64,000 bases of DNA. It comes from Candidatus Polarisedimenticolia bacterium. GTDB taxonomy: Bacteria; Acidobacteriota; Polarisedimenticolia; JACPZX01; DASXTC01. The notes below the pieces were generated by a model. The model saw nothing but the letters and a program-made list of their open reading frames with translations, did not search any database and was not told the origin of the DNA. The translations under genes were made by a program, and so were the position numbers. The stretch is taken from NCBI GenBank assembly GCA_050747525.1, contig JBOGOC010000097.1, forward strand, positions 74,209 to 138,208, written 5' to 3'. Below, piece by piece: positions 2,532 through 20,857 of the stretch (position 1 is the first letter of the stretch; every line of letters starts with the position of its first letter).

Positions 2532-2960
2532 TCAGTGGCCCGGCCGTTGGAGAAACATCCAGCGGTGGCCTTCCAGGTCCTCGACGCGGTACCGGCGTCC
2601 CGGGCCGCCGCCCTCCGGTTCCGACAAGATCGAGGCGCCCGCTTTTCTGGCTCGTTCGCAGTGCGCGTCAACGTCCTCGATGTGAACCAGCACGCCGTCG
2701 ATGACCCAGGGAACGGCAGCCCACCGGCGGGCCGGCTCGCAGCGTTCTCGATGCCGCCTCGGGCTCTCGTAATCCGGCGTTGGCGTCGCAAGCATGATCA
2801 CGCCGTTGCCGACCGCCATCTCACCGTGGCTGAGTCTCCCGTCGGCGTCGAGCATGCGGGCGGTCTCTCGAAACCCGAACGCACGGGCAAGCCATTCGAG
2901 CGCGGCGACACCATTCTCATAGGAGAGCATGGGGACCACGGCAGGACTCACCTCCTTCAT
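2532..2960 (-). CDS. VOC / glyoxalase-bleomycin-resistance family protein (PhnB-like)
   Basis: From the internal Met: MKEVSPAVVPMLSYENGVAALEWLARAFGFRETARMLDADGRLSHGEMAVGNGVIMLATPTPDY...VLVHIEDVDAHCERARKAGASILSEPE. This is the paired beta-alpha-beta-beta-beta VOC pattern. The track's 200-aa ORF carries an implausible Arg-rich N-terminal extension, so the start was trimmed to the Met at 2960. Confidence 0.65.
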   Translation of the reverse strand: MKEVSPAVVPMLSYENGVAALEWLARAFGFRETARMLDADGRLSHGEMAVGNGVIMLATPTPDYESPRRHRERCEPARRWAAVPWVIDGVLVHIEDVDAHCERARKAGASILSEPEGGGPGRRYRVEDLEGHRWMFLQRPGH

Positions 2961-3199
2961 TGCTTCCTCCCCTCGAATTCGAAGGTCATCTGGCTGGCGT
3001 CCGGCAGGGTGATCACCGACCTGGTGGTCATGCGCCAGGGGTCGGGGAAGGTCCAGGTGATCGATTCGGTCATGGGCTTGCCCTGAAGGCCGCCGACGAA
3101 CGGATCGAACACGACTGTCGACTCTCCCTTCCAAAGCCCTTTGTGATCATGAACTTCTCCCATGGAGGTCACGCACACGGCCTCAGTCCATCCATTCAT
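2957..3199 (-). CDS. hypothetical small protein (80 aa)
   Basis: Its stop overlaps the start of the downstream VOC gene by 4 nt (ATGA), which suggests translational coupling. Composition is non-repetitive. No family recognised. Confidence 0.4.
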   Translation of the reverse strand: MNGWTEAVCVTSMGEVHDHKGLWKGESTVVFDPFVGGLQGKPMTESITWTFPDPWRMTTRSVITLPDASQMTFEFEGRKQ

Positions 3200-3414
3200 G
3201 AAGAAAACCCATGAGTCGGTGCCAGGCCATTCTAACCCGGAATCCGGACGCGCCTGCCTGGTTCCAGACGAACCTGTTCCGAGCCCTGTGCGCCGTCGCC
3301 GCCGCGATGGTCAAGTGGTGTCATGAGACGTGGAGTCGCTTTCGTCCCCGTGCACGGCGAGCCTAGGTGGGCGGGCCGCTGTCACCGGCCCGCCGTTTCG
3401 AGCAGGGTGTGTGT

Positions 3415-4578: not shown

Positions 4579-4725
4579 GGTTATCCTCCTGATAGATGAA
4601 GTGGGACGGAATGTCCAACCGCCCACGGATTCACAGAAGCAGTACCTCCAGCAAGAGGTGGGTACTCGCCGGTTTCGGACGCACAACCGGACTTGAGGGA
4701 TTTGATGTCTGAAAAGGGCTGATCG

Positions 4726-6219: not shown

Positions 6220-6336
6220 CCTGGACGCCGGTGCCCGCGTCGCACCACAACACCTACCACGGCACCATCCCTGCGGGACTGCTGGCGGGGCGCGGCCTGC
6301 CGTACGACCACAGCTGCTTCGAGAGCGCCGACGAGC

Positions 6337-7755: not shown

Positions 7756-7814
7756 CGAGACTCGGAGCGTTCCGGCTTCAATGAGCAGCCGCGCCTTCCG
7801 GGCTCGGCTCTGAG

Positions 7815-8981
7815 CTATTCCGTCCAGGTCCCAGCGAAGAAATTCAGGGCCAGTGGCGCGCCGAGTGCCGCGAACAGGAACAGCACGAGGTAATAAAGCC
7901 ACTTGCTCCTGCACAGGTACCCGAGCAGCATGAAGTGTGGGAACAGGGTCATGAGGTATCGCCCGATCGACCCCGTCGGCAGGGCCCCGGATCCCAGCGT
8001 GAGACTGAACGTCGAAAGCAGATAAATGGGCAGGCAGTAGAGCCAGTAGCTCGGCGCCATGAACCGCAGCGACAGGATCAGCAATCCGAGATGCGCGATC
8101 ATCGATGAAAGGTCGAGCAGCAGCAACGGCCGGTAGTAATGCCAGTATGGAATGACGCCGAACGCCTGGTACGAGAAGCTCAGCGCGGTGCCCAGCCCGA
8201 CCACCTGGCGCCCCCAGGCTGCCTGGACCGTGGCAAAGGCCAGGGGATCCTCGGTGGTACGCCAGCAGAACAGCATGAAGAGGCCGAGGGCCGCGGGGGG
8301 AAGCAGTAACCCCAGCGCTTCGAGACGACTCCGCCGCCGGGTATGCCATTCCCACGCGAGAGGCAGCACGATGGCAAGTCCCGCCAGGCGCGTCAACGTC
8401 GCGATCGCGCCCAGGCTCACGGCGATCCACCACCGTCCTGTCCGTGCGTGATAGAGAGTTGCCGCCACGAGGGCCAGGAAGAGCGATTCGGTGTAGCCGG
8501 CCGAGTAGAAATAGGAGAGCGGGAACAGCGCCACGAGCAGGACGGTCCTTTCTGCGGCCTCACGATCGAATTCGAGGGCGCAGATTCTGTACAGGTAGAC
8601 GAGATAGACCAGGAAGGACAGGTTGGCGATCAGGAAGAGCGCGCCGGCAATGTCTCCTCCGAGGCCCCGGCCGACGACGCGGGCCAGCATAGGCAAGACA
8701 GGAAAGAAGGCGAAGGTCGATTGCTCACCGGGACCCTTCCAGCTGTACCCGTTCCGGGCGATCTCCTCGTACCAGCCGGCATCCCATTGCATGAAGCTCG
8801 ATACCAGTCCGGCCTGCGGGACCGGACGGCTCGCCCCGTGCTCGCCGGGTCGCCAGGCCACGAACGCCAGGGCCAATGTGAAGAGCGCGACGCGGGAGGC
8901 CACGCCGATGCTGATTGGTGCGAGCCAGAGGTCCGGCCGGATGGCGCCCCGTATCTTGCGCGCAAGATGCAAAAGCTCCAT
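7815..8981 (-). CDS. GT-C fold integral-membrane glycosyl/mannosyltransferase (PMT/ArnT/DUF2029-like)
   Basis: About 11 predicted TM helices; aromatic-rich periplasmic loop near the N-terminus (SSFMQWDAGWYEEIARNGYSW). Start moved to ATG at 8981 (MELLHLARKIRG...) because it is preceded by the RBS AAGGAAGG. The track's start at 9065 adds 28 residues. Confidence 0.55.
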   Translation of the reverse strand: MELLHLARKIRGAIRPDLWLAPISIGVASRVALFTLALAFVAWRPGEHGASRPVPQAGLVSSFMQWDAGWYEEIARNGYSWKGPGEQSTFAFFPVLPMLARVVGRGLGGDIAGALFLIANLSFLVYLVYLYRICALEFDREAAERTVLLVALFPLSYFYSAGYTESLFLALVAATLYHARTGRWWIAVSLGAIATLTRLAGLAIVLPLAWEWHTRRRSRLEALGLLLPPAALGLFMLFCWRTTEDPLAFATVQAAWGRQVVGLGTALSFSYQAFGVIPYWHYYRPLLLLDLSSMIAHLGLLILSLRFMAPSYWLYCLPIYLLSTFSLTLGSGALPTGSIGRYLMTLFPHFMLLGYLCRSKWLYYLVLFLFAALGAPLALNFFAGTWTE

Positions 8982-9222
8982 CGCCCCATCCTTCCTTAGT
9001 TCTACATTCGCCGATCCAGCAGCGACCGGCCGCAAAATATAGGGTCGGCCTCGTTCGGGGCGCAAGAAGGCGGGGCTGAAGGGCGGGGACGGCGCTCCAT
9101 GACCCAGAGACCGGAGTTGTTCGAGGCCTACCGCCGGTATGCAGGTGGAGATGAGGGACCGTGGCCGTGTCGCCCCACTTCACCTCCTGCCCCTCCTTCG
9201 CGTCGACTTTCGATGCACCCGA

Positions 9223-10230
9223 CTAAAAGCGCCGCGCACTGACCAGCGCGAACGACCTGACGCTCTCGTCGAAGAAGTCGATGTCGGAGGTCTTCTCGTA
9301 GGCGGCGCCGGTGAAACCGGCACTCCATTTGCCCGGAGAAGGAAACAGGGCGATGAAGGAAACGCCAATGCCGTCCGAGTCGGCCGGCTTGCCGTAGATG
9401 GGATGCTCCTGGTCGTACCGGGTCGACTCGGCGTAGGCGGTGGCAGTGACCGTCACCCTCTTCCCGGCGTACACGTAGGCTATCTCGAATCCCGCAAGGT
9501 CGTGCGCCACCGCCTCACCATCCCGGTCCTGGATCTGAAGGGTCGCGCGCGGCGCCAGGCCGTGCCTCTTGGAGAGTCTGATGTGATACGAGACGCGGAC
9601 TTGCTGCATGAGTCCGTCCCGCTCGAGGAGCCGCTGCTCGGCGTCCGTGAGGCCGAGAAACCTGCCGCTGCGCTCTTTCTCGACTTCAATCCGGCCCGCC
9701 GTGAGCTCGATCTCGAGCCCCGAGCCGCCGATGCCGCTCCAGGTGAGGCGCGCTCCTCGCGACTCACGGTCGGTCACTTCGCGCTCTTCCCCCGTCACGT
9801 AAGGATCCTCCCAGACGCGCACCGGGAGACCGGCGAGCAGCTCGACCCCCAGGAGTCCCGCGCTTCCCAGCCCCTGAGTCAGGCGGATGCTGGCCGTGAA
9901 GTCGTACCGGATGACATCCTCGACGGAGTGGCCGGCGCTCAGATAGGTCCGCGATCCTGCGAAGCGGTAGCCGATCTCGCCCTTGAGGAACGGGACGGGA
10001 TCCGTGACGGAGCCGGGCTCGTCGACCAGTGAGCCGATCTCCTCCTTTCCAAACTGCTGGAGCCTGCTGCCGCTGATGAAGTTGCTCTCGAGTTTCTGGG
10101 TCCCCGCCCCCATCACGTCGAAGCCGTGCCAACCGGCCTTCTCGGGAGGTGGGTCAAGAGCCGCCGCCGGCGTCGCGGCGGCCAGGAGCGGCCCGAGGAC
10201 GACGAGGGTCCTCACCATCCAATGTTTCAT
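9223..10230 (-). CDS. putative outer-membrane beta-barrel protein
   Basis: Signal peptide MKHWMVRTLVVLGPLLAAATPAAA. Alternating amphipathic beta-strand pattern throughout. C-terminal ...FALVSARRF with a terminal Phe, typical of a BAM substrate. Confidence 0.5.
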   Translation of the reverse strand: MKHWMVRTLVVLGPLLAAATPAAALDPPPEKAGWHGFDVMGAGTQKLESNFISGSRLQQFGKEEIGSLVDEPGSVTDPVPFLKGEIGYRFAGSRTYLSAGHSVEDVIRYDFTASIRLTQGLGSAGLLGVELLAGLPVRVWEDPYVTGEEREVTDRESRGARLTWSGIGGSGLEIELTAGRIEVEKERSGRFLGLTDAEQRLLERDGLMQQVRVSYHIRLSKRHGLAPRATLQIQDRDGEAVAHDLAGFEIAYVYAGKRVTVTATAYAESTRYDQEHPIYGKPADSDGIGVSFIALFPSPGKWSAGFTGAAYEKTSDIDFFDESVRSFALVSARRF

Positions 10231-10374
10231 CCACTATATCTATCACCACTGGTTGAGGTTCGCAGCGTCACTGCGGCTCGGATGCCCGTCTCGACACTTC
10301 TATGTCACCCCGGCAGAGGTTCGAGTTCGTAGTCGCTGGTCACCCGGGATGCGCAGTGAAGGCTCCCTCCCACC

Positions 10375-11316
10375 TCATGGGCGCAACGTGCCCGCCGCCG
10401 ATCCCTCGGCGGTGGGCGGCTCGCGGTCAATGACGGGGGAGGGGAGGGCCTGCTCCATCCACGCGCGGATCCTGCTGGCGTCTCCCAGGCGCGTGTACTT
10501 CCCCCAGGAGTCGAGCAGGACGATGACGACGTCTCGCGCGGCAATCTTAGCTTCCATCACGAGGCACCGCCCGGCCTCGTTGATGTAGCCGGTTTTCGAC
10601 AGCGCGATGTCCCAGGTCTTGTTGCTCACCAGCCGGTTGGAGTTGTGGAGTTGGATCACCCGCCCGCGCGGAAGCCTCACCGTGTGGGAGGGGGAGGTGG
10701 TCGCCTCGCGGATCCTCGGATAGGCGCGGGCGGCCAGCACCAGCCGGGCGAGGTCCGCGGGGGTAGAGACGTTCTTGTCGGACAGCCCCGTCGGATCCGT
10801 GAAGCGGGTCGAGAGCATTCCCAGCTCCACCGCCTTGCGGTTCATGGCCTCAACGCACATGGAGGTCCCTCCCGGGTAGGCCCGCGCCAGAGCGGAGGCC
10901 GCCCGGTTGTCCGAGGCCATCAATGCCGCCAGGAGCAGATCCTCCCGCTTGAGGCGGGCTCGCACCGGAAGCCGGGACCCCGAATACTTGATCGTGTCGA
11001 CGTCCGCGCGCGTGATGGCGATCTCATCGTCGAGGGGAGACCCCGCATCCAGCACCACCATGGCGGTCATCAGCTTGGTGATGGAGGCGATCGGAGCAAC
11101 CTTGTCGGGGTGCTTCGAGTAGAGTGTCGTGCTCTTCTCCGCGTCGATCACCAGAGCGAGGTTCGATCTCACGCCGGGGCCGTGTTGCCCGCTCGGTCCA
11201 GGGCGCGCCGCGCTAGGGCGGACGGCTGCACGAGAGGCACCGGCGGCTGCCCCCCTCGCCGGCGTCGTGCCGGCTGCCATGAAGAGAGTCGAGAAAATCA
11301 TGACGACCAGGGTCAC
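10375..11316 (-). CDS. pbpG: D-alanyl-D-alanine endopeptidase / carboxypeptidase, peptidase S11 (PBP7-like)
   Basis: Signal peptide. SxxK motif (ASITKLMTAMVV), SxN motif (ASDNRAA), KTG motif (LSKTGYINEAG). 313 aa with no C-terminal DacA-type domain. Confidence 0.7.
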   Translation of the reverse strand: MTLVVMIFSTLFMAAGTTPARGAAAGASRAAVRPSAARPGPSGQHGPGVRSNLALVIDAEKSTTLYSKHPDKVAPIASITKLMTAMVVLDAGSPLDDEIAITRADVDTIKYSGSRLPVRARLKREDLLLAALMASDNRAASALARAYPGGTSMCVEAMNRKAVELGMLSTRFTDPTGLSDKNVSTPADLARLVLAARAYPRIREATTSPSHTVRLPRGRVIQLHNSNRLVSNKTWDIALSKTGYINEAGRCLVMEAKIAARDVVIVLLDSWGKYTRLGDASRIRAWMEQALPSPVIDREPPTAEGSAAGTLRP

Positions 11317-11774
11317 CGGGGGATCGATTCGATTCAGGAGAGCCTCCTCTCTGCGGGTTCCTCACCAAGGCATCGGTCGACAAGCTAGCGGAAATCCTTG
11401 CTCATGAAAAGGGGCGAGGCAAGGAAATCACGGTCATGTCCATCCCTCGTGAAAGTCCCCGTCAGCCCGGGGTCATCGGAGGAGGATGATTCCGGATCCA
11501 GAATAGGAAACGCGCTGATATGATGGGCCGGCACCCCACCATTGAGGGGCACCATGGCAGCGGTTCGCATCGCTCTCCTGGCAGTCGGTGCGGTCCTGTT
11601 CACCGGCGCCGCGGCACCTCCGCCCCGGCGTCGAGCCCGGGAAGGACTTCGATCGCGTGCGGTCGCTGACTCCAGCCGAGCCGTGGGAGCCCGGTCCCGT
11701 CGTCGACGAGGCCGATCGCTTCGTCATCCGGGTGGCCAAAGGCGACCCTTGTCCGTAGTGCCAGCGTCTGCCCC

Positions 11775-12527
11775 GTGCGCAAGGTGACCAGTGCCGAGAT
11801 CCTGTCCGGGCGCCGGCCTGCGGCGCAGCCGGCACTCTGGTCGGTACGTCTCCGGTTGCTTGCCGTCGCTTTGACCTGCCCGGCGAGTTCACGGGAGCGT
11901 GATCAGCGGCTCTCGGAGCTGTGGCCGCTGCTTTACGGCTCCTTGAGCCGGTTCGTCCGCCTTCACGCAAGCCGTTACGGATCCATGGGGCAGGATCTCG
12001 TTCATGACATCGCCTCCGAGAAAGCGATAGATCTGCTCGCCCGCCTCGATAAGGGAGCATGGGACCCGGGACGCTGGAGTCCTGCTCAGCTCGCGGGGCT
12101 CCTGTCCCGGATAGCCCGAAACGGCGTCGTCGACCACATCCGCTCTCTGCGCAGGCTGAGCGATCTGGATCCGCTTCCGTGTCTGGAGCGCGGATCGGCC
12201 CAGGCCCGTTCCGAGACCGCTGACAACGGCCTGGAGCGCCGTCTGTTCGCCGCCGCGCTGCGAGAGTGCGCCGGCACCCTGCAGAGGCGAGCGCGCGCGG
12301 TGTGGCTTCTGCGCGTCTTCCTCGAGATGCCGAGCGCGGAGATCGCGCGCCACCCGGGCGTTCGGATGCGCGCGCCGGCCGTTGACATGATGCTGATGCG
12401 TTGCCGGCGGATCATCGGACAGTGCATGCGGGGAAAGGGATTTGAGCCGAAAGACATCCCCCCTGGGGCCTTCGCGGTTGTGTGGAAGGCCTTCGGGCTC
12501 GACCAGCAGCCGGAGAGAGAGGAATGA
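11775..12527 (+). CDS. ECF (sigma-70 family) RNA polymerase sigma factor
   Basis: Region 2 (SELWPLLYGSLSRFVRLHASRYGSMGQDLVHDIASEKAIDLL). Region 4 HTH (LRVFLEMPSAEIARHPGVRMRAPAVDMMLMRCRRII). The true start is probably downstream (TTG/GTG near 11870), because the first ~30 codons are low-complexity. The stop overlaps the next start (ATGATGA). Confidence 0.65.
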   Translation: MRKVTSAEILSGRRPAAQPALWSVRLRLLAVALTCPASSRERDQRLSELWPLLYGSLSRFVRLHASRYGSMGQDLVHDIASEKAIDLLARLDKGAWDPGRWSPAQLAGLLSRIARNGVVDHIRSLRRLSDLDPLPCLERGSAQARSETADNGLERRLFAAALRECAGTLQRRARAVWLLRVFLEMPSAEIARHPGVRMRAPAVDMMLMRCRRIIGQCMRGKGFEPKDIPPGAFAVVWKAFGLDQQPEREE

Positions 12528-13246
12528 TGAAGGCGAGCCATTCCCATCCGGGCGATGACCGGCTCTTCGACCTCGCGCACGGGCTGCTTCCACGTGACGT
12601 GGGGAAGACCTGCTTCGACCACCTGGCCGCCTGCTCCGAATGCGAAGATCGCTTCCGGGAGATGACGCGGGATCGGCATCGAGCGTTGAGCATGGAGCCT
12701 CAGACGCTCGAACCGTCCGGAGCGTCCACCATCAGGAGCATCCCGAGGCTGTGGGCCACGCTGGGGTTGTCGGCCGCGGCGATCATCCTCATGGCCGTCC
12801 TGTTTCTGCCCGGGCGGGAGGACGGGCCGCCGCCCTACTGGCTGCCCATCGAGGTCGGCAACACGCTGCTTCGCTCCGGGCCGGCCCCGGACAGGTACGC
12901 GAGAGCGTTGGAGGCGTACGAGCGCCACGACGCCGCACGCGTCGTCGCGATCCTGGAAAGCGAGCCGATCCCTCGTCAGGATCTCTTCATGCGGCTTGTC
13001 TACGCGAGCGCGCTTCTCCTCGAGGATCGCCCGAGGCAGGCGCGGGAGGAGCTCATGAGCATCCGGATCGACCGGCTGCCGGAGCCCTCTCGGCGTCGCG
13101 CGCGCTGGCTCCTGTACAGCAGCCAGCGCCAGTTGGCGGAAAATGAGGAGGCTGATGCCCTGCTGGCGCAGCTTGCCGCCGATCCGGGAGTGATCGGCGA
13201 TCTTGCGCGGGCCGAGATCGTCAGGCTGGGATCGGCGCAGCCATGA
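12524..13246 (+). CDS. anti-sigma factor (zf-HC2 zinc-finger, single TM, periplasmic domain)
   Basis: MMKASHSHP start overlaps the sigma stop. Zinc-binding motif HLAACSECEDRF. One TM helice (LWATLGLSAAAIILMAVLFL), then a periplasmic segment. Stop overlaps the next ATG. Confidence 0.6.
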   Translation: MMKASHSHPGDDRLFDLAHGLLPRDVGKTCFDHLAACSECEDRFREMTRDRHRALSMEPQTLEPSGASTIRSIPRLWATLGLSAAAIILMAVLFLPGREDGPPPYWLPIEVGNTLLRSGPAPDRYARALEAYERHDAARVVAILESEPIPRQDLFMRLVYASALLLEDRPRQAREELMSIRIDRLPEPSRRRARWLLYSSQRQLAENEEADALLAQLAADPGVIGDLARAEIVRLGSAQP

Positions 13247-15654
13247 TCGGGACGCAGACCTCTCTCGGAGCGGCCGGCGCATTTCGTTTGAGCGTGGCTG
13301 CTTCCTTGCTGGTCGTATCCACAAGCCTGTGGATCGCGACCTATCTGCTGGCCCGGGAGAGCTCCGCTGAGCTGCGGGCGGCGGGGAACTCGGACGGCAC
13401 CCGCAGCGTCATTGAAACGCTCGTGAAGCAGGAGCGGTACCTCGAAGCGTTCTCGCGGGCCGTCGCCAGGGTGAGCGGGCTCTCGGAGGCGCTCGGTCTG
13501 GACTCGCCCGCGTCGCTGGATGCCCTCGAGCAGGTCGCGGTCATCGCGCATCGGGCAGGAGACCAGAACCTCGCGGAGCTGCTCCTCGAAGTGTCGCTCG
13601 CCCGGCGGCGGGTGGTTCACGGGGAGCGGTCGCCGGAGGTCGCGGAGAGCCTGCATCATGAGGGGCTCGTGGCCCGCTTCCTCGGCCGGTACGAGCAGGC
13701 GCGTCAGCTCCACGACCAGGCGATCCAACGGCTCGCGCCGCACCGGGCCACTCACGGCCCCCTCCTGGCCGAAGCGATTCAGGCCCAGGCGAGCTGGCTG
13801 CGCCACGTGGAACTCGACCGTGCCATCGACGGATACGCCGACGCGCTGGCCGTCCGCCTCGAGAATCCCGAAACCCCCAGGATCGCCATCGCCGACAACC
13901 TTGTGTGGCTGGGCTGGACGACGTTCCAGGCGGGACGACATGAGGAAGCGGCGCTTCACCTCGCGGAGGCCGAGCGTCTCCTGCGCGAGGCAGGACTGCA
14001 CGATCACACGCTCATGGGCGTCCTCCTCTCCGTTCGCGCGGATGAGCTGGCCATCCACGGAGCGTGGGCGGCCGCCGCGCAGGCGTACGAGGCGAGCACC
14101 GCGATCTTCGAGGTAGCGCGACGCAAGCACTTCCCAGGCTTCCCGCGTCGCAAGAGCCCGCCTCACGGGTACGCCACCTACGCGCTGACTCAGCTGATGC
14201 AGGGGCGGGACGAAGAGGCGTGGACGCTCCTGCAACGTGCGCGCGGCGCGGTGACCTCGGACTTCCTTCAGCTCGCCCGCTGGCAGGAGCTTCGCCCCGA
14301 CACCTGGCGGGAGATAACGGATCTGCGCAGGGCGACCCTGGCCGCCGAGGAGGATCTTCGCGACGCAGCACCGGAGGCGCAGTTGAAGTCGATCCTGCGC
14401 CTGCTCGATCTCCGCGCGCGGACCCTGGAGCTGGAGCAAGCCTTCCTTGACGCGCACCCTCCCCGCGAGGCCCCGTCGCTCACGGCACTGCAGGCCGCGC
14501 TCGCCCCGGAGGAGGCCTTCGTCGGCTGGGTCGACTTCCGGTTGGGAAACCATCACGGGCAATCCAGAGGCCCGAGCCGGGCGGAGATCTGGGCGTACGT
14601 CATCCGGCGCGACAGCATCCGCTGGGTTCCCTTGATGCGCGCCCGAACGACGGAGGAGGCGCGGGCGACTGACGAGAGCTTCAGGAGATACAGCCATGCC
14701 CTGAGGATCGCCGCGGGCTGGCCGGAGCGGGTGGAGCCGGACGAGGAGCTGGACCGATTGCGGCGCGAGGTGGGATCGATCCTCATGGATCCGGTGCTGC
14801 CCGAGCTGCACGGGAAGAAGGTCCTGATCGTCGAGCTGTCGAACCTGGTCCCCGAGCTTCCGATCGAAGCCCTGATCCTCGCGGACGGCACGGTGGTGAA
14901 GGAGCGCTTCGCGGTCTCCTACATCCACTCGGCAGAGACCTACATGGCGATGCGCCGCACGGATCCGGATCGCAGTGACCTCCGACGGCTGCCGGCCCTC
15001 ATCGTCGGAGATCCGGCCTTCGGCGCGGAGAGCCCGTATCTGCCGCTGCCGTTCTCCAGCCAGGAGATCGCGGGTATCTCCTCCCTGTTCCCGTCCGCGA
15101 GCGTCCTGCGCGGCGCCGCGGCGACCGAGGCCCGGCTGGACGAGCTGGCGCGTTCCGGCCGGCTCCGGGAGTTCGGCATCCTCCACTTCGCCACCCATGT
15201 GGTGAGCGGGGGGCACCTGGAACGCTCGGCGGTGGTGCTGTCCCCGGAGGACGAGGGCGGATACGACGGGCTCGTCGATGCCGCCGAGATCCTGGCCGGC
15301 TGGCGTCTGCGCGCCGACGTCGTGGCCCTCAGTGGCTGCCACTCGCTCGTCGGCCGGGGCCCGGCGGACAGCGGGGAGTACCTGGGATTCACGCAGGTTC
15401 TCCTGGCCGCTGGAGCCCGGAGCGTCCTGGCGAGCCTGTGGCGCGTCGACGACGAGGCGACCGCACACTTGATGAAGCGCTTCTACGAGAATCTGATGGG
15501 CCAGCCTTCCACGCGCGCCTCCCGGGCGCAGGCGCTCCGCGAGGCGGGCCTCTGGCTGCGCAGGTATGTCGACGAAGAAGGCCGGAGGCCCTTCGAGCAC
15601 CCGGTCTACTGGTCCGGGTTCATCGTGATCGGACCTCCCGGATCTCCGCGTTAG
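13243..15654 (+). CDS. TPR-repeat / CHAT-domain protease (caspase-like), N-terminal TM anchor
   Basis: N-terminal TM (LSVAASLLVVSTSLWIATYLLA). TPR-like helical repeats. C-terminal CHAT domain with His (ILHFATHVVSGGH) and Cys (VVALSGCHSLVG) of the caspase-like catalytic dyad. 4-nt overlap with the upstream anti-sigma gene. Confidence 0.8.
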   Translation: MIGTQTSLGAAGAFRLSVAASLLVVSTSLWIATYLLARESSAELRAAGNSDGTRSVIETLVKQERYLEAFSRAVARVSGLSEALGLDSPASLDALEQVAVIAHRAGDQNLAELLLEVSLARRRVVHGERSPEVAESLHHEGLVARFLGRYEQARQLHDQAIQRLAPHRATHGPLLAEAIQAQASWLRHVELDRAIDGYADALAVRLENPETPRIAIADNLVWLGWTTFQAGRHEEAALHLAEAERLLREAGLHDHTLMGVLLSVRADELAIHGAWAAAAQAYEASTAIFEVARRKHFPGFPRRKSPPHGYATYALTQLMQGRDEEAWTLLQRARGAVTSDFLQLARWQELRPDTWREITDLRRATLAAEEDLRDAAPEAQLKSILRLLDLRARTLELEQAFLDAHPPREAPSLTALQAALAPEEAFVGWVDFRLGNHHGQSRGPSRAEIWAYVIRRDSIRWVPLMRARTTEEARATDESFRRYSHALRIAAGWPERVEPDEELDRLRREVGSILMDPVLPELHGKKVLIVELSNLVPELPIEALILADGTVVKERFAVSYIHSAETYMAMRRTDPDRSDLRRLPALIVGDPAFGAESPYLPLPFSSQEIAGISSLFPSASVLRGAAATEARLDELARSGRLREFGILHFATHVVSGGHLERSAVVLSPEDEGGYDGLVDAAEILAGWRLRADVVALSGCHSLVGRGPADSGEYLGFTQVLLAAGARSVLASLWRVDDEATAHLMKRFYENLMGQPSTRASRAQALREAGLWLRRYVDEEGRRPFEHPVYWSGFIVIGPPGSPR

Positions 15655-15726
15655 AAATCCCTCCTCCCGCCGATCAGTCAGGGAGCCGGCGTCGTGAGCC
15701 GCTCCACCTTCAGGAGGAGAGTGGTG

Positions 15727-18700
15727 ATGAACCAGACCCCTGTCGCCTTCACCCGGTCGATTCCGCTGGTCCTGATCCTTCTCGTCCTGATGCCGGGGGG
15801 GGAGGTCGAGGCGGTGTCCCCTGCACCGCCGCAAGGGGCGCCTCCGGGCTCGGGGCAGTGGCTTGCCAGCTGGGAGGGGGCGCCTGCGCCGGGAGCCTTC
15901 CGCGCCGCCGAGGGCGTGGTGTCCCTGGGTGGGCCGCATGCGACTCAGGCAGAGGTGGTCGCCGCCGTGCAGAGCCACCTCGTCGCGAATCCGCAGCTCC
16001 TCGGGGGACTGGATCCTGCACAGGAGGTCGAGGTCGCCTATTCCGCGGGGATCCGCGACATGGTCTATGTCCACTACCGTCAGCTCCTGCAGGGAGAGGG
16101 GCTGGACGTGGAAGGGACCTGGGTGCGGTTCTCGGTCAAGCGGGGGGCCGGAGGCAGCATCATTCTGGACACGGACGTGCGCGTGTACCCGTCGCTGACG
16201 TCCTTGCTTCCCTCTGCGTCGCCGCGGCCGGGCGCCGAGCTGAATCAGGCGGCCCGGGCGGCCCTTGGGATCGCCGGGGGGACCCTCCTGCGGGAGAAGT
16301 ATGTCGTCCGGCACGTCGAGAGAAGGGCCGGTCAAGGCCGATGGTATCGGGTCTACGAGGCGCGCTTCGAGGAAAGCCCCTACACCGCCGTCGTCGACTC
16401 GGACACGGCCGAGGTGCTGGGCGTTCGCGACGATCGCCGTTACGCTGATCCGGCGATCCAGGTGGTCCAGGGGACGCTTCGTGGAGACGGCGTCTGGTTC
16501 GACCCGGTCACCACCGGCGAGGACCTCGACACCTTCAACCTCGCGGATCTCGCCGTGAACGCGGGCGGGCAGATCGTCTACACCGACGATCAAGGGCGCT
16601 TCATCTTCCCGACCCTCACGACACCGACCAACGTCAGCGCTCGGTTGACGGGACGCTGGGCGGATGTGTGGTCGTACTTTCTCGATGACCTGACCGTCTT
16701 GGGAGTCGCTACGCCGGGAGTCCCTCTCGACCTGCACTTCAACCCAGCCGGCTACCACAGCTATGAGGTAGCGCAGGTGAATGGCTACCACCACACGACT
16801 CTCGTACACGACTGGGTCAGCACGAGGCTTGGCAGCGCCCTCCCCATGCTGGACAGCTTCACCGTTCCAGTCTACGTGAACCTGCCGGGCCAACCATGCT
16901 ATGCATCCTTCAATGGCTCACTCAATTTCAATCGAGAAGGCATTCACGAGGGCAACGAGTGCATCAATACCGCCTACGACACCATCATCTACCACGAGTA
17001 CGGCCACTACGTGGACGCGTTGAGCCCCCTGGGAGAGGGAGAGGCTCTCGGAGAGGGTTTCGGGGACATGCTGGCGAGCTACGTGAGCGGCCAGCCCGAG
17101 ATTGGAGAGAACCTGGACGATCAGAGTCCTTTCCTCCGGACGGCCGACAACGACTACAGGTATCCCCCTGACGGGTTCGGGGAGATACACGAAGTCGGCC
17201 AGGCCTGGGCCGGCTTCGCATGGCATCTCCGCGAGAACCTGATCGCCGGGCTCGGGTCTGTGGCCGGCCGGCAGGCCGCCGAGGATCTCGTGATCCCGAT
17301 GTTCGTCGCGGATCCTTACAGCATTCCCGATGCCGTCTGGGAGGTGGTTCTTCTGGACGATGCGGACGAGGATCTCTCGAATGGCACGCCGCATCTCGCG
17401 GAGATCGCCGGCGCGGCGGCCCGGCACGGCCTCTTCCCCTTCCACTCCGATTCGGTGACGGTCATTTCCTATCCGGCCATGACGTCGGTCGAGGCCTCGC
17501 AAGGCACCGTCCCTGTCATCGGGACCGTGGATCCCGCCGCCGTCTATCCGGGCCTCGTGCTCCAGGACTACGAGTTGTCTTACGGCTTCGGGCGCAACCC
17601 CGGGAGCTGGATCTCGCTGGCCACCGGCACGAGCGCCGTCCGGAACGGCCTCCTGGGGACCTGGGACTTCAGCGCGCTGCCTGTCGGGCTGTACAGCCTC
17701 AGGCTCGTTGCGCGGGCGACAAACGGCCTGCTGTTTCAGTTCGTGACGAAGGTCGGAATCGAAGCGACGATCACACCGATCACCACGGATCCGGCCTGGC
17801 AATTCAGCCCGGCGATTTCGGGCCGCAACGTCGTCTGGGAAGACCATCGCAATGGATTCGCCTTCGCGGACATCTGGCGTCACGACCTCGTCACGGGCGC
17901 CGCGTCGAGCGTGACGACGTCCCCGGGGCGCCAGTCAAACCCGGACGTCGCAGGAAGTCTTGTCGTGTGGGAGGACTACCGCAGTGACTTTCACGGAGAC
18001 GTCTACCTCTTCGATCTGTCGACGGGCTCCGAATGGCCCCTCGCCACCGGAGCCTTGAACCAGATCGATGCCAGGGTCTCGGGGAACCGCGTGGTCCGGA
18101 CGGACTACGGGAACGGGAACGCGGACGTGATTCTGTGCGAGTTCGATCCGGCGACGGGCCAGTGCCCCCAGCGCTGGTCGACGAACCATGCGGCCACCCA
18201 GGAGCTCCCCGCCGTGTCAGGGAACGTGGTCGCGTGGACGGATTATCGCAGCGGCAACGCGGACGTTCGCGCATGCACTTACAATCCCGCGACCGGTGCG
18301 TGCGGCACTCTCTTCGCGCCGGCGGACCCGTCGATTCAGTGGTACCCGCACGTCTCGGATCCGCTCATCGTCTGGGAGGACTTCAGGAGCGATCCCGGCT
18401 GCTTCCCGTACCCCGGTGGTCCCGTCTGCGACACGGACATCTACCTGCGTGATGGCGCAGTCCGGACCATCGCCATCTCGTCGCCGGGGCTCCAGATGGA
18501 TCCGGTGGTCGACGCCGGGCGTAAGCTCGTGGTCTGGTCAGGGATGGTCGAGGACAACCTCGACATCTTCTACTGCAGGTACGATCCGGTGAGCGGGGCC
18601 TGCCCCGCGCAACAGCTCACCTTTGATCCGGGCAACCAGACGAATCCGGCCATCCATGGCGACATGATCATCTGGTCCGACGACAGAGGCGGGAACCTGG

Positions 18701-20268
18701 ACATCTACTTCGTCAATCTGGGCAACGACGCGCCGGTCTTTCCGCCGGTCCCGATTCCGGTCAGCCTCGACGCCGGCGAGGCGTACAGCGTGGATCTCAC
18801 GGCGACCGATCCGGACTTCGAGCCCGTGACCTACCCCGCGGCGACCCTGCCTTTCGGGGCTACGTTCGATCCGGTGACTCACGTCTTCAGCTGGACACCG
18901 ACCAACTCGCAGGGCGGCACGCACAACATCACGTTCAGCGCGAGGGATGCCCATGGAGCGACGGGCTACAGACTGCTGTCCATCGTCGTCACCGTGCTCC
19001 ACAACGAGCTGGTGACCGCCGCCGGGAACCAGACGAATCCCGCCGTGACGTCCCAGTCCGACGGGAACCTGGTGGTGTTCGAGGACGACCGGTCCGGTGA
19101 CATGGAGCTCTACCTCCACAACCCGACCACGGGCCGCGACATCCGGCTGACGAACCATCCCGCCGGACAACGCAGCCCGTTCCTGTACGGCAGGTCGGTT
19201 CTGTGGGAGGACAACCGTACGGGCGTGTGGAACATCTTCCAGTGTCTGTACGATCCCGTCGCTGAGACCTGCCCGCCGCAGCAGGTCAGCTTCCCGCTGG
19301 CTCCTGTCGTCAACTACATCCGGGCCGAAAAACCCGAGCGCTCCGGGGATCTCATCGTCTGGCAGGGCTATCGGAACTTCCTCAACTTCCAGTACGACAT
19401 CTGGGTCAACGACACGGCGGGCGGCGGCGAGCGGGCGATCACGTTGATCGAGGGCTCACAGGAGAACCCGGCGGTCAACGGAAGCCTCATCGCGTGGCAG
19501 GACAACCGGCACGGGAACTGGGAGATCTACCTCTGCCGGTACAGCCAGGGCAACTGCCCCGAGCGTCGGATCACCACGGATCCCGGGATTCAGAGGAACC
19601 CGGTCATCTCGGGGAGCTACGTGGTCTGGGAGGACAATCGCAACGGGAACTGGGATCTGTACTACTGCCTCTACAACTTCGCGACCGGCGCCTGCCCCGC
19701 GCAGCAGCTCACCAGCCATCCGGCGGATCAGATGGCGATCACGATCAACGGCGGGGTCCGCTGGCTCTGGCAGGACAACCGCGATGGAGACTGGGACATC
19801 TTCACCTGTTACAACGACTTCGTCACCTGTCCGATCATGCGGCTGACGGATCATCCGGCCAATCAGCAGTCACCCGCCATCTCGAGGGACAGTTTCGGGG
19901 ATCTCGTCGTCTGGCAGGACGATCGCGGAGGAACCTGGGATCTACGCTACGCGGACTTCTTCAACCGGGCACCGGTGATCGAACCCATCGGCACCAAGGA
20001 GGTTCAGCCCAACGGCACGCTCTCGTTCCACGTCTTCGCGACGGATCCGGAGGGAGATCCGGTGGCCTACTCCGCCAGCGGCCTTCCGAGCGGGGCGGTC
20101 TTCTATCCGGCCAGCCAGCGATTCACCTGGACCCCGACGCCCTCGCAGCTGGGAACGCACACCGTGAAGTTCACCGCGGAGGATCCCTACTCGAGCTCGT
20201 CCTCGGTGACGATCACCATCAGGGTGCGGTACGTGAAGCCCGATCCTCGAGACCCCACGGAGATGTGA
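15727..20268 (+). CDS. secreted multidomain zinc metalloprotease: PepSY/FTP-like propeptide + M4/M36 (thermolysin/fungalysin-like) catalytic domain + 2 x (7-blade PD40/TolB-like beta-propeller + cadherin-like He_PIG domain)
   Basis: Start taken at MNQTPVAF...LVLILLVLMPGGEVEA (signal peptide). Catalytic HExxH with downstream Glu ligand motif: IIYHEYGHYVD...GEGEALGEGFGDMLAS. Fourteen blade-like repeats of consensus NQtNPAisGxxVVWeDxRnGNwDIY, several with a paired-Cys loop (DPATGQCPQRW, NPATGACGT, DPVSGACPAQQLT, DPVAETCPPQQVS, SQGNCPERRIT, NFATGACPAQQLT). Two about 90-aa cadherin-like domains (NDAPVFPPVPIPVSLDAGEAYSVDLTATDPDFEPVTY... and NRAPVIEPIGTKEVQPNGTLSFHVFATDPEGDPVAY...). Confidence 0.75.
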   Translation: MNQTPVAFTRSIPLVLILLVLMPGGEVEAVSPAPPQGAPPGSGQWLASWEGAPAPGAFRAAEGVVSLGGPHATQAEVVAAVQSHLVANPQLLGGLDPAQEVEVAYSAGIRDMVYVHYRQLLQGEGLDVEGTWVRFSVKRGAGGSIILDTDVRVYPSLTSLLPSASPRPGAELNQAARAALGIAGGTLLREKYVVRHVERRAGQGRWYRVYEARFEESPYTAVVDSDTAEVLGVRDDRRYADPAIQVVQGTLRGDGVWFDPVTTGEDLDTFNLADLAVNAGGQIVYTDDQGRFIFPTLTTPTNVSARLTGRWADVWSYFLDDLTVLGVATPGVPLDLHFNPAGYHSYEVAQVNGYHHTTLVHDWVSTRLGSALPMLDSFTVPVYVNLPGQPCYASFNGSLNFNREGIHEGNECINTAYDTIIYHEYGHYVDALSPLGEGEALGEGFGDMLASYVSGQPEIGENLDDQSPFLRTADNDYRYPPDGFGEIHEVGQAWAGFAWHLRENLIAGLGSVAGRQAAEDLVIPMFVADPYSIPDAVWEVVLLDDADEDLSNGTPHLAEIAGAAARHGLFPFHSDSVTVISYPAMTSVEASQGTVPVIGTVDPAAVYPGLVLQDYELSYGFGRNPGSWISLATGTSAVRNGLLGTWDFSALPVGLYSLRLVARATNGLLFQFVTKVGIEATITPITTDPAWQFSPAISGRNVVWEDHRNGFAFADIWRHDLVTGAASSVTTSPGRQSNPDVAGSLVVWEDYRSDFHGDVYLFDLSTGSEWPLATGALNQIDARVSGNRVVRTDYGNGNADVILCEFDPATGQCPQRWSTNHAATQELPAVSGNVVAWTDYRSGNADVRACTYNPATGACGTLFAPADPSIQWYPHVSDPLIVWEDFRSDPGCFPYPGGPVCDTDIYLRDGAVRTIAISSPGLQMDPVVDAGRKLVVWSGMVEDNLDIFYCRYDPVSGACPAQQLTFDPGNQTNPAIHGDMIIWSDDRGGNLDIYFVNLGNDAPVFPPVPIPVSLDAGEAYSVDLTATDPDFEPVTYPAATLPFGATFDPVTHVFSWTPTNSQGGTHNITFSARDAHGATGYRLLSIVVTVLHNELVTAAGNQTNPAVTSQSDGNLVVFEDDRSGDMELYLHNPTTGRDIRLTNHPAGQRSPFLYGRSVLWEDNRTGVWNIFQCLYDPVAETCPPQQVSFPLAPVVNYIRAEKPERSGDLIVWQGYRNFLNFQYDIWVNDTAGGGERAITLIEGSQENPAVNGSLIAWQDNRHGNWEIYLCRYSQGNCPERRITTDPGIQRNPVISGSYVVWEDNRNGNWDLYYCLYNFATGACPAQQLTSHPADQMAITINGGVRWLWQDNRDGDWDIFTCYNDFVTCPIMRLTDHPANQQSPAISRDSFGDLVVWQDDRGGTWDLRYADFFNRAPVIEPIGTKEVQPNGTLSFHVFATDPEGDPVAYSASGLPSGAVFYPASQRFTWTPTPSQLGTHTVKFTAEDPYSSSSSVTITIRVRYVKPDPRDPTEM

Positions 20269-20440
20269 AGCGCCGTCCCCACGGGTCGCATGCGAGAGCC
20301 ACCCATGGTTTGCGTGGTGCCAGGGGAGGGAATTCAGGCCGTGGCAACGGGACGCGGGAGCCGTCGGCAAGCAGTCCCGTCTCCCAATCGATCAGGTTGC
20401 CGTAGCAATCGAAGCTCAACACCTGGTAGCCTTGGCGGCC

Positions 20441-20857
20441 GTGAAGACCCTCTCGAGCTTGATCCTGCTCTGTGCGCTGGCGCTCCTGACGGCCGGCTGT
20501 GCGAAGGGACCCAAGGTGAAACCCTCGCCGAAAGCCGCTCTCGAGGTGCGCGAGGGGCTTGCCTCCTACTACGGGCAGCGTTTCCACGGCAAGCTCACCG
20601 CCAGCGGTGCTCGATTCGACATGCATGAGCTCGTGGCGGCTCATCCAAGCTACCCGTTCGAAACCATCGTCCGCGTCACCAATCTCCGCAACGCTCGCTC
20701 GGTCCAGGTGCGCATCCTCGACCGGGGACCCTCCCAGCGTGCGCGGGCGGACGGCGTCGTGATCGATCTGTCGTACGGCGCCGCTCGGGCCCTTGGCTTT
20801 GTCGAGGAGGGCCGCACCCGCGTTCGGCTCGAAGTGCTGCGCTGGGGGAAAAAATGA
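20441..20857 (+). CDS. RlpA-like lipoprotein (double-psi beta-barrel domain only)
   Basis: GTG start gives MKTLSSLILLCALALLTAGC (lipobox). DPBB signature GLASYYGQRFHGKLTASGARFDMHELVAAHPSYPFETIVRVTNLRNARSVQVRILDRGP. No SPOR domain. Confidence 0.65.
   Translation: MKTLSSLILLCALALLTAGCAKGPKVKPSPKAALEVREGLASYYGQRFHGKLTASGARFDMHELVAAHPSYPFETIVRVTNLRNARSVQVRILDRGPSQRARADGVVIDLSYGAARALGFVEEGRTRVRLEVLRWGKK

What the first reader, a model, noticed from the sequence alone, without database searches (positions are those of the whole stretch)
11775..20268. ECF sigma / anti-sigma / TPR-CHAT protease / giant secreted metalloprotease gene string with overlapping stop-starts
The three upstream genes are translationally coupled (ATGATGA and ATGA overlaps at 12524 and 13243). 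A TM-anchored TPR-CHAT caspase-like protease, with an intact His/Cys dyad, is not a usual third member of an ECF-sigma/anti-sigma pair. It is followed 40 nt later by a 1,514-aa exported M4/M36 protease. Two hypotheses follow. The CHAT protease may be the regulated protease that degrades the zf-HC2 anti-sigma; that would be a non-canonical replacement for site-1/site-2 proteolysis. Or it may process the giant exoprotease. TPR-CHAT proteases have recently been recognised as signalling effectors (for example Csx29 in type III-E CRISPR, and gasdermin-activating proteases), so a sigma-coupled version would be a new context.
Basis: inference. Interest (0 to 1): 0.6.

Follow-up and report, generated by a model that had tools for sequence, protein, structure and literature searches.

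The report
Sigma/anti-sigma pair with separate caspase-like protease
An acidobacterial operon encodes a stress-type sigma factor, its membrane anti-sigma factor and a separate membrane-anchored caspase-like (TPR-CHAT) protease; the trio recurs in several phyla and looks like an unfused version of the Myxococcus DdvA-DdvS switch, so the idea that the protease cuts the anti-sigma factor could be tested directly.

Summary
The gene string is real. It comprises a divergent ECF-type sigma (11775-12527), a zinc-finger single-pass anti-sigma (12524-13246), a membrane-anchored TPR-CHAT protease with an intact His/Cys pair (13243-15654), and a 1,513-aa secreted protein with a thermolysin-like (M4/M36-type) catalytic domain (15727-20268). 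Both ATGA stop/start overlaps are present.

The first three genes form a conserved module. The window-type sigma/anti-sigma pair lies beside a TPR-CHAT gene in 12 of 14 loci, in co-directional, convergent and divergent arrangements. Those loci carrying an organism name come from Acidobacteriota, Eisenbacteria and Krumholzibacteriia. More broadly, 39 of 78 loci encoding related TPR-CHAT proteins have an ECF-like sigma ORF within 2 kb. That is about ten times the density 2-6 kb away.

The giant protease is linked only in the ~80%-identical orthologues.

The closest known system is M. xanthus DdvA-DdvS (2024), where the anti-sigma is fused to a periplasmic TPR-CHAT proposed to act as its own site-1 protease. 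This locus is the unfused version.

The second hypothesis, that CHAT processes the exoprotease, is not supported. No cleavage has been shown. Verdict: new variant of a known kind, moderately interesting.

The parts
11775..12527 (+). Divergent ECF-type sigma factor (250 aa), with N- and C-terminal extensions conserved across its family
   Evidence: NCBIfam sigma70-ECF E 1.8e-6 and Sig-70_gvs1 E 1.6e-8, both below their cutoffs. The family profile hits only sigma factors among solved structures. The family holds 204 50%-identity clusters at E<=1e-30. The GTG start is supported by L002.
12524..13246 (+). Single-pass anti-sigma factor (240 aa): a cytoplasmic zinc-finger (ZAS) domain, a TM segment at aa 77-95, and a ~145-aa TPR-like periplasmic domain
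   Evidence: ATGA overlap with the sigma gene. H33, C37 and C40 are invariant, and the juxtamembrane WLP motif and C-terminal domain are conserved across 8 loci. TM by hydropathy. Weak matches to RsiW and the DdvA N-terminal domain and to ChrR.
12620..12643 (+). Hx3Cx2C zinc-binding motif of the anti-sigma (His33, Cys37, Cys40)
   Evidence: Invariant columns in alignment A10
13243..15654 (+). Membrane-anchored TPR-CHAT caspase-like protease (803 aa)
   Evidence: ATGA overlap. Pfam CHAT 183.9 bits, plus TPR_12. AF2 model pLDDT 84.8, pTM 0.85. Foldseek top matches are Csx29/craspase, DdvA and separase.
13294..13350 (+). N-terminal hydrophobic anchor or uncleaved signal segment of the CHAT protein (aa 18-36)
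   Evidence: Hydropathy 1.87-1.99. Modelled as a helix over aa 11-39. Homologues carry signal peptides.
14764..15633 (+). CHAT protease domain (aa 508-797), with catalytic His652 (nt 15196-15198) and Cys699 (nt 15337-15339)
   Evidence: Pfam envelope. H652 and C699 are invariant or nearly so.
15655..15726 (+). Conserved spacer between CHAT and the protease gene. It includes AGGAGG and a possible ECF-type promoter-like motif, GAAAT-N18-AGTCAG.
   Evidence: Nearly invariant among the three orthologous loci apart from a 32-nt indel. The motif was found but is not statistically enriched.
15727..20268 (+). Secreted 1,513-aa multidomain protein: signal peptide, FTP/PepSY-like propeptide, thermolysin-like (M4/M36-type) catalytic domain, 12 beta-propeller repeats, and He_PIG/Big_9 Ig-like domains. 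Linked to the trio only in close orthologues.
   Evidence: domains; homologues with PF02128; invariant HEYGH/E443/D447; profile hits thermolysin and fungalysin; fold.
16993..17067 (+). Zinc-binding and catalytic motif HEYGH (aa 423-427) ... GEGFGD (Glu443, Asp447)
   Evidence: Invariant in the 18-sequence alignment A6. Aligned with the fungalysin HEYTH...GEGWGD motif.

Best explanation
Genes 1-3 form a three-component ECF signalling module, an unfused counterpart of Myxococcus DdvA-DdvS.

**Proposed mechanism.**
1. The anti-sigma holds the sigma factor in the cytoplasm through its zinc-finger domain. It projects a conserved TPR-like domain into the periplasm.
2. The TPR-CHAT protease is tethered to the same membrane facing the periplasm. 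It docks on, or sits near, that domain.
3. On an unknown periplasmic (probably protein) signal, the protease cleaves the anti-sigma's periplasmic part, the site-1 step.
4. An RseP-type intramembrane protease and cytoplasmic proteases then free the sigma factor.

The giant thermolysin-like secreted protein is a lineage-specific addition. It is most likely an output gene of the sigma factor rather than part of the switch.

**Shown:** the gene identities, the overlaps, the predicted topology, and the conservation of the trio.

**Inferred:** physical contact between CHAT and the anti-sigma, the cleavage, the signal, and the regulon.
For: **1. Conservation of the module.**
- The window-type sigma and anti-sigma lie next to a TPR-CHAT gene in the window, L001, L002, L007, L008, L009, L016, L086, L090, L091, L093 and L094.
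- Gene order varies: sigma>anti>CHAT, convergent, and divergent.
- The organism-named loci come from Acidobacteriota, Eisenbacteria and Krumholzibacteriia MAGs; the rest are unclassified.
- Linkage that survives rearrangement argues for a functional tie.

**2. The broader pattern.**
- 39 of 78 loci of TPR-CHAT relatives have an ECF-like sigma ORF within 2 kb.
- Sigma ORF density is 21.4 per 100 kb at 0-1 kb from the CHAT gene, against 1.5-2.9 per 100 kb at 2-6 kb.
- Most of these sigma ORFs (about 30 of 39) are followed by a 220-360 aa single-pass membrane protein.
- Pfam recognises 28 of 40 sigma candidates as Sigma70_r4_2 and 12 of 35 partner proteins as zf-HC2.
- At least five distinct sigma clusters are involved.

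**3. Compatible topology.**
- The anti-sigma has about 75 aa in the cytoplasm, one TM segment and about 145 aa outside.
- The CHAT protein has an N-terminal anchor, and its relatives carry signal peptides.

**4. Catalytic residues retained.** The dyad motifs are kept in 34 of 40 sigma-linked CHAT proteins.

**5. Fusion precedent.**
- DdvA is ZAS-TM-TPR-CHAT in a single chain. Its periplasmic CHAT is proposed to clip its own linker in trans before RseP acts (PMC11506125).
- The window's CHAT model matches DdvA (8rw5, E 8.6e-11) with 16% identity. That is the highest identity among the TPR-CHAT proteases in the list.

**6. Coupled production.** The ATGA overlaps suggest co-production of the three proteins.

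**7. Constraint on the anti-sigma.** Its periplasmic domain and the juxtamembrane WLP motif are conserved across phyla.
Against: - No cleavage is shown here, or even for DdvA. Its dyad mutants behaved like wild type in the uninduced state, and the signal is unknown.
- A conserved neighbour of an ECF pair can be a target rather than a regulator. Casas-Pastor et al. state this caveat.
- The association is not universal. L089 has the window-type pair with no CHAT gene within 6 kb. The CHAT relatives P0005, P0006 and P0008, and half of the sampled loci, have no sigma nearby.
- The 80 loci are the top tblastn hits, not an independent sample. 22 of the 39 positives share one acidobacterial sigma clade.
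- The sigma ORFs were found with an iterated home-made HMM, and Pfam confirms only part of them.
- Topology rests on hydropathy and homology, not on a dedicated predictor. The charge distribution around the window's CHAT anchor is ambiguous.
- DdvA is not uniquely the closest structure. Craspase and separase score similarly.
Confidence: 0.48

Rival explanations
1. The TPR-CHAT protease is an output of the sigma factor, not its regulator. The sigma/anti-sigma pair responds to some envelope signal by the ordinary route (DegS/Prc-type site-1 protease, then RseP). It then switches on its own operon, which delivers an exported caspase-like protease, and in this lineage a giant metalloprotease, as effectors against other cells, proteins or phage.
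For: ECF operons are commonly autoregulated and sit beside their targets, and regulators cannot be told from targets by neighbourhood alone (PMC7826278). In the window and its orthologues two exported proteases follow each other. Many related CHAT proteins are exported with no sigma nearby, so the protease has a life of its own. The spacer before the protease gene is conserved and holds a motif resembling one upstream of the sigma gene in L001 and L002.
Against: The anti-sigma's own periplasmic domain co-occurs with CHAT across phyla. The fused DdvA shows that the two parts can work as one polypeptide. The linkage survives changes of orientation that split the transcription unit.
Confidence: 0.27
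2. The TPR-CHAT protein acts as a non-proteolytic partner. It would be a periplasmic sensor or shield that binds the anti-sigma domain, as RseB binds RseA, and blocks or permits cleavage by another site-1 protease. Its caspase-like site would have a different substrate or be regulatory only.
For: In DdvA the bulky TPR-CHAT sterically protects the protein from RseP, and dyad mutants keep the repressed state. TPR arrays are protein-binding modules. A third gene for a periplasmic modulator has a precedent in rpoE-rseA-rseB (established knowledge).
Against: The His/Cys dyad motifs are retained in 34 of 40 sigma-linked members, which argues for selection on catalysis.
Confidence: 0.15
3. The CHAT protease matures or activates the giant thermolysin-like pro-enzyme encoded next to it.
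For: The two genes are adjacent and both products are exported. The metalloprotease has a propeptide-like N-terminal region that must be removed. The spacer is conserved in the three orthologues.
Against: The metalloprotease follows CHAT only in the ~80%-identical orthologues. It is absent downstream of CHAT in L090 (50% identity), L006-L010 and P0004. Homologues of the metalloprotease domain occur in other architectures. M4 propeptides are normally removed autocatalytically (established knowledge of the M4 family).
Confidence: 0.07

Closest known systems
[quoted passage not shown]
   Same: An ECF sigma is paired with a zinc-finger (Hx3Cx2C/CHCC) single-pass anti-sigma and an extracytoplasmic TPR-CHAT module with a His/Cys dyad. 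Summing the window's anti-sigma (240 aa) and CHAT protein (803 aa) gives roughly DdvA's length (about 991 aa). The window's CHAT model matches 8rw5 at E 8.6e-11 and 16% identity. The proposed logic is the same: CHAT acts as the site-1 protease ahead of RseP.
   Different: Here the anti-sigma and the TPR-CHAT are two genes and two membrane-anchored polypeptides, so any cleavage would be truly in trans between different proteins. The anti-sigma keeps its own small TPR-like periplasmic domain. No CBASS/CRISPR or other defence genes are nearby. The lineages differ too: fused DdvA-like proteins were reported only in Myxococcota and one Comamonas. Sequence similarity to DdvA is not detectable with phmmer.
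ECF group ECF54, whose conserved neighbourhood includes carboxypeptidase, subtilase and CHAT proteins (reviewed in PMC8999054)
   Same: A CHAT-domain protein recurs next to an ECF sigma, and proteolytic control of the sigma has been proposed.
   Different: ECF54 is described as actinobacterial and as lacking an anti-sigma factor. Here a ZAS anti-sigma is always present (9 of 9). The sigma belongs to a distinct divergent family.
Canonical regulated intramembrane proteolysis of anti-sigma factors (RseA/DegS/RseP with RseB; RsiW/PrsW/RasP)
   Same: [quoted passage not shown] The third operon gene encodes a periplasmic partner.
   Different: The candidate site-1 enzyme is a caspase-fold cysteine protease with a TPR array, not a PDZ serine protease or a PrsW-type metalloprotease.
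Craspase (Cas7-11/gRAMP with Csx29 TPR-CHAT) and the CalpL-CalpT-CalpS type III CRISPR protease-anti-sigma-sigma cascade
   Same: The TPR-CHAT fold matches (Foldseek E 2.7e-11 to 8eey_B). The general theme is a signal-activated protease that releases a sigma factor by cutting its inhibitor.
   Different: Those systems are cytoplasmic, RNA- or cOA-activated and CRISPR-linked. Here the protease is predicted to be periplasmic, no cas genes are present, and the Csx29 model scores 13.6 bits against a cutoff of 300.
Thermolysin/fungalysin-type metallopeptidases (MEROPS M4/M36), for the fourth gene
   Same: HExxH plus Glu 20 residues downstream (GEGFGD). The thermolysin-like fold and an FTP/PepSY-type propeptide are present. 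Some homologues carry PF02128.
   Different: The window protein itself scores below the Pfam M4/M36 thresholds. It also carries about 900 aa of beta-propeller and Ig-like domains.

Membership tests
ECF (group 4) sigma-70 factors | Sigma2 and sigma4 domains recognised by family models | tested here: inconclusive
   TIGR02937 E 1.8e-6, 27.7 bits (cutoff 42.9). Sigma70_r4_2 18.7 bits (cutoff 25.7). No Sigma70_r2 hit. All six hits of the family profile against solved structures are sigma factors, but with E 0.008-0.4. The IARNGVVDHxR motif is conserved.
ECF (group 4) sigma-70 factors | Co-transcribed cognate anti-sigma factor immediately downstream | tested here: met
   ATGA overlap. Window-type anti-sigma follows window-type sigma in 9 of 9 metagenome loci with enough sequence.
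Class I / ZAS anti-sigma factors | N-terminal Hx3Cx2C zinc motif | tested here: met
   H33, C37 and C40 are invariant in 8 sequences. The Pfam zf-HC2 model does not reach E 0.01 for the window protein, but hits 12 of 35 partner proteins in related loci.
Class I / ZAS anti-sigma factors | Single transmembrane helix separating cytoplasmic and extracytoplasmic domains | tested here: met
   One hydropathy peak, aa 77-95. The position is conserved in the family. No experimental topology.
TPR-CHAT caspase-like proteases (Pfam PF12770) | CHAT domain above the gathering threshold, with the His/Cys dyad | tested here: met
   183.9 bits vs 24. H652 and C699 are conserved.
TPR-CHAT caspase-like proteases (Pfam PF12770) | TPR superhelix followed by a caspase-like fold, as in separase, Csx29 and DdvA | tested here: met
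   AF2 model pLDDT 84.8. Foldseek E 1e-10 to 1e-11 against craspase, DdvA and separase.
DdvA-type anti-sigma factors | ZAS domain, TM helix and TPR-CHAT in one polypeptide | tested here: not met
   Two genes separated by a stop codon (ATGA overlap). The split is conserved in L001, L002, L007, L008, L086, L090 and L094.
DdvA-type anti-sigma factors | TPR-CHAT located in the periplasm | tested here: inconclusive
   An N-terminal anchor is predicted, and relatives carry signal peptides. The flanking charges of the window's anchor are ambiguous. No experiment.
DdvA-type anti-sigma factors | CHAT active site lacking the three-helix motif, and a dimeric arrangement | not tested
DdvA-type anti-sigma factors | Controls an adjacent antiphage defence island | tested here: not met
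   No significant PADLOC hit for the four proteins. The neighbours are cell-wall and glycan enzymes.
ECF54 neighbourhood type | No anti-sigma factor; actinobacterial sigma clade | tested here: not met
   An anti-sigma is present. The host is Acidobacteriota. ECF-group HMMs are not available here.
Type III-E craspase (Csx29) | Match to the Csx29 model and association with Cas7-11 | tested here: not met
   NF041237 scores 13.6 bits against a cutoff of 300. No cas genes were found among the neighbours examined.
Thermolysin-like metallopeptidases (M4/M36) | HExxH plus a downstream Glu zinc ligand, and the thermolysin fold | tested here: met
   HEYGH, E443 and D447 are invariant. Foldseek against aureolysin, thermolysin and ProA gives E 4e-7 to 1e-6 and target TM 0.58-0.67.
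Thermolysin-like metallopeptidases (M4/M36) | Match to the Pfam Peptidase_M4 or M36 models | tested here: not met
   No hit at E<=0.1 for the window protein. Homologues P0066 and P0069 carry PF02128, and P0084 carries PF01447.

The most novel reading that the evidence does not exclude
Exported TPR-CHAT caspase-like proteases are a widespread, previously unrecognised class of dedicated site-1 proteases or signal sensors for ECF sigma signalling. Each would cleave a cognate single-pass anti-sigma factor in trans in the periplasm. They would operate in Acidobacteriota, Planctomycetota, Eisenbacteria, Krumholzibacteriia and other lineages. On this view the fused DdvA of myxobacteria is one derived special case.
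Probability: 0.35. Interest if true: 0.75.

Novelty: new variant of a known kind. Interest (0 to 1): 0.58.

Why it matters
How ECF anti-sigma factors are first cut is known for only a few systems. The DdvA study proposed caspase-like self-cleavage but could not test it, because protease and substrate are one chain and the signal is unknown.

In the split version the enzyme and its presumed substrate are separate proteins. A simple mixing experiment with catalytic-dead controls could test the idea directly.

The survey also suggests that the sigma/anti-sigma/TPR-CHAT trio is common in abundant but poorly studied soil and sediment phyla. It would then account for a sizeable share of their many unassigned ECF systems and of their many orphan CHAT proteins.

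If the CHAT protein turns out to be only an output, the finding is still a useful conserved regulon marker, but much less interesting.

Tried and rejected
- **Alignment too diverse.** An 8-sequence CHAT alignment was too diverse for the search for related loci. A 6-sequence one worked.
- **Sequence searches against solved structures.** Single-sequence and profile searches with the CHAT protein returned only TPR proteins. DdvA was not detectable by sequence. The anti-sigma alone gave nothing. The metalloprotease region alone gave nothing, and only the family profile and the fold search resolved it.
- **Contexts without a sigma.** The contexts of P0005, P0006 and P0008 contain no sigma/anti-sigma. 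The two ORFs upstream of P0006 are unrelated. The association is therefore not universal.
- **P0004 unresolved.** P0004 has two upstream overlapping genes of the right sizes, but no DNA could be fetched, so their identity is untested.
- **Promoter idea.** A GGAAC-N16-AGTCTG-like motif sits upstream of the sigma gene in L001 and L002, and a similar one lies in the CHAT-protease spacer. The motif is no more frequent in the window than in shuffles (4 vs 3.5), and one hit lies inside an MFS transporter gene. It counts as a lead only.
- **Promoter and terminator scan.** The sigma-70 promoter and terminator scan found nothing above chance.
- **Defence-system models.** PADLOC gave no significant hit.
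- **Apparent fusion in L064.** The long N-terminus of its CHAT ORF is an artefact of taking the most upstream start codon. The real start gives a lipoprotein signal peptide.
- **Multimer modelling.** AlphaFold-multimer on anti-sigma x CHAT could not be run with these tools.

Full report
**1. What is there**

The window has 62-72% G+C. It matches at 100% a CHAT protein annotated from a Candidatus Polarisedimenticolia MAG, class-level Acidobacteriota.

Four co-directional ORFs occupy 11775-20268. The sequence shows both 4-base overlaps:
- ATG 12524-12526 overlaps TGA 12525-12527.
- ATG 13243-13245 overlaps TGA 13244-13246.

*Gene 1* is a divergent ECF-type sigma.
- It scores below curated thresholds: TIGR02937 27.7 bits vs 42.9, and Sigma70_r4_2 18.7 vs 25.7.
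- Its per-protein E-values are 1e-6 to 1e-8, and nearly all weak NCBIfam hits are sigma factors.
- A six-sequence family profile hits only sigma factors among solved structures.
- The GTG at 11775 is the only start codon conserved in orthologue L002.
- The NCBI call for this gene (P0061, 180 aa) starts at Met71 and drops conserved N-terminal sequence.

*Gene 2* has no Pfam hit. It has an invariant Hx3Cx2C motif, a single hydrophobic segment (aa 77-95), and a conserved ~130-aa TPR-like C-terminal domain preceded by a conserved WLP motif.

*Gene 3* is an unambiguous TPR-CHAT protein.
- Pfam CHAT scores 183.9 bits.
- It has an N-terminal hydrophobic anchor.
- His652 and Cys699 are conserved.
- The AF2 model is confident (pLDDT 84.8, pTM 0.85).
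- The best Foldseek matches are Csx29/craspase (2.7e-11), the anti-sigma DdvA (8rw5, 8.6e-11, 16% identity) and separase.

*Gene 4* most likely starts at ATG 15727, behind a conserved AGGAGG, giving 1,513 aa.
- It has a signal peptide.
- It has no Pfam M4/M36 hit.
- It has an invariant HEYGH...GEGFGD motif.
- Two homologues carry Peptidase_M36 and one carries Peptidase_M4.
- Its family profile touches the thermolysin propeptide and the fungalysin active site.
- Its model (pLDDT 76) matches aureolysin, thermolysin, ProA and the M4/M36 propeptides.
- The remainder is 12 beta-propeller repeats and He_PIG/Big_9 Ig-like domains.

**2. Is the string conserved?**

Two other contigs, L001 (NCBI MAG) and L002 (JGI), carry all four genes at 75-81% amino-acid identity with different flanking genes. 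The cassette therefore travels as a unit.

Further away the fourth gene is lost but the first three stay together. A scan of GTDB representative genomes with a CHAT alignment returned 80 loci. Among the closest of them:
- The window-type sigma is present in L007 and L009 (Eisenbacteria), L008 (unclassified) and L016 (Krumholzibacteriia).
- The window-type anti-sigma is present in L006 (Fibrobacteraceae MAG), L007, L008, L009 and L016.

The reciprocal scan started from the sigma alignment and searched metagenomes.
- All nine loci with enough sequence have the window-type anti-sigma immediately downstream.
- A CHAT gene is adjacent in L086, L090 and L094 (co-directional), L091 (convergent) and L093 (divergent).
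- L089 has none within 6 kb. L087 is unclear.

Overall, 12 of 14 informative loci keep the trio, in three orientations. The sigma family itself is sizeable, with 204 50%-identity clusters at E<=1e-30.

**3. A broader pattern**

I seeded an ECF HMM with RpoE plus the window family and iterated it on all ORFs of the loci.
- 39 of 78 loci of TPR-CHAT relatives have a sigma-like ORF within 2 kb of the CHAT ORF.
- Sigma density falls from 21.4 per 100 kb (0-1 kb) and 6.5 (1-2 kb) to 1.5-2.9 (2-6 kb).
- Most of these sigma ORFs (about 30 of 39) are followed by a 220-360 aa protein with a single TM segment, usually at about residue 105-165.
- Pfam independently of 40 candidates Sigma70_r4_2 (10 Sigma70_r2, 6 Sigma70_ECF) and 12 of 35 partners zf-HC2.
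- The sigmas fall into at least five BLAST clusters. The largest holds 22 members, mostly Pyrinomonadaceae/Blastocatellia.
- Most CHAT proteins in the set, linked or not, start with a signal-peptide-like segment. The dyad motifs are kept in 34 of 40 linked members.

Caveats:
- The loci are the best hits, not a random or phylogenetically independent sample.
- ORF starts are heuristic.
- The HMM is home-made.

**4. Mechanism**

The literature supplies a direct precedent. M. xanthus DdvA is an anti-sigma with a cytoplasmic zinc-bound domain, one TM helix, a flexible linker and a periplasmic TPR-CHAT.
- Removing the TPR-CHAT makes DdvA an RseP substrate.
- The authors propose signal-induced CHAT autoproteolysis in trans as the site-1 step.
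- They could not trigger it, and dyad mutants behave like wild type in the resting state (PMC11506125).
- They found DdvA-like fused proteins only in Myxococcota and one Comamonas.

The window encodes the same parts as two polypeptides, both anchored in the membrane and both predicted to face the periplasm. It is not met, because site-1 cleavage is periplasmic.

I therefore favour (about 0.5) a split DdvA-like module in which the TPR-CHAT senses a periplasmic signal and cleaves the anti-sigma's external part. The rivals are:
- CHAT as a sigma-dependent output (about 0.27).
- CHAT as a non-catalytic shield or sensor (about 0.15).
- CHAT as the maturase of the metalloprotease (about 0.07). This one is weakened because the metalloprotease is linked only in the close orthologues.

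The metalloprotease is best read as a lineage-specific output. The spacer before it is almost invariant and contains a motif loosely like the one upstream of the sigma gene in L001 and L002. That motif is not enriched over chance.

**5. Comparison and novelty**

The locus works like DdvA-DdvS but fails DdvA's defining fused architecture. It also has no defence island.

A link between ECF sigmas and CHAT proteins has been noted for group ECF54, described as lacking an anti-sigma (PMC8999054; PMC7826278). Here an anti-sigma is always present.

I found no paper describing the unfused sigma/anti-sigma/exported TPR-CHAT trio or its breadth. The held library is incomplete, so this is absence of evidence only.

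Verdict: a new variant of a known kind. The regulatory role is a well-founded but unproven inference.

Noticed in passing
window 11775-11985 and 12420-12524 (sigma N- and C-terminal extensions): The sigma family carries a conserved ~45-aa N-terminal extension (invariant Pro12, Trp19, Leu26) and a conserved C-terminal tail (D-x-PPG-x-F...W), both beyond the sigma2/sigma4 core. NCBI's gene call for this locus (P0061, 180 aa) starts at Met71 and removes the extension and part of sigma2.
   Followed up: partly
window 15655-15726; L001 10457-10561; L002 10451-10555: The spacer between the CHAT and metalloprotease genes is almost invariant among orthologues whose proteins are only ~80% identical, apart from a 32-nt indel. 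It contains short complementary runs (CTCCC...GGGAG, and CTCC...GGAG around the ribosome-binding site). These could form regulatory hairpins or mark a promoter.
   Followed up: partly
window 9223-10230 (-) versus L001 15274-16173 (-): A DUF2860 gene lies upstream of the four-gene cassette in the window but downstream of it in L001. L002 has neither arrangement. The cassette has moved relative to its neighbours.
   Followed up: no
window 6337-7755 (+) and 7815-9065 (-): A glycoside hydrolase family 47 (alpha-mannosidase-type, E 8e-117) gene sits next to a PIG-V-like mannosyltransferase membrane protein. This is a pairing of families best known from eukaryotes.
   Followed up: no
L012 2065-7323 (Gemmataceae MAG): A 1,752-aa ORF combines an N-terminal Cys-rich segment, a Ser/Thr protein kinase and a C-terminal TPR-CHAT, with an ECF-like sigma ORF 555 nt downstream on the other strand. 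This is a different, fused way of coupling CHAT to sigma signalling.
   Followed up: no
L009 566-3823 (-) (Eisenbacteria MAG): A 1,084-aa kinase/NB-ARC/TPR (STAND-type) protein lies directly beside the divergent sigma/anti-sigma and CHAT genes.
   Followed up: no
L006 5332-8214 (+) and 9085-12507 (-): Two TPR-CHAT genes lie within 4 kb of each other. The first is preceded by a window-type anti-sigma (4504-5316), but no sigma ORF was detectable upstream, so the partner sigma may be elsewhere or lost.
   Followed up: partly
L005 (context of P0008) 392-11364 and 11408-15049: Several short CHAT and TPR gene fragments surround a full-length TPR-CHAT gene next to type VI secretion genes (DotU, VasE, IcmF-related). 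This suggests a decaying or rearranging CHAT gene cluster.
   Followed up: no
window 20432-20857 and 10375-11316: The cassette is flanked by cell-wall enzymes: a DPBB lytic-transglycosylase-like protein downstream and an S11 D-Ala-D-Ala carboxypeptidase upstream. This may hint at an envelope-related stimulus, but these neighbours are not conserved in L001 or L002.
   Followed up: partly
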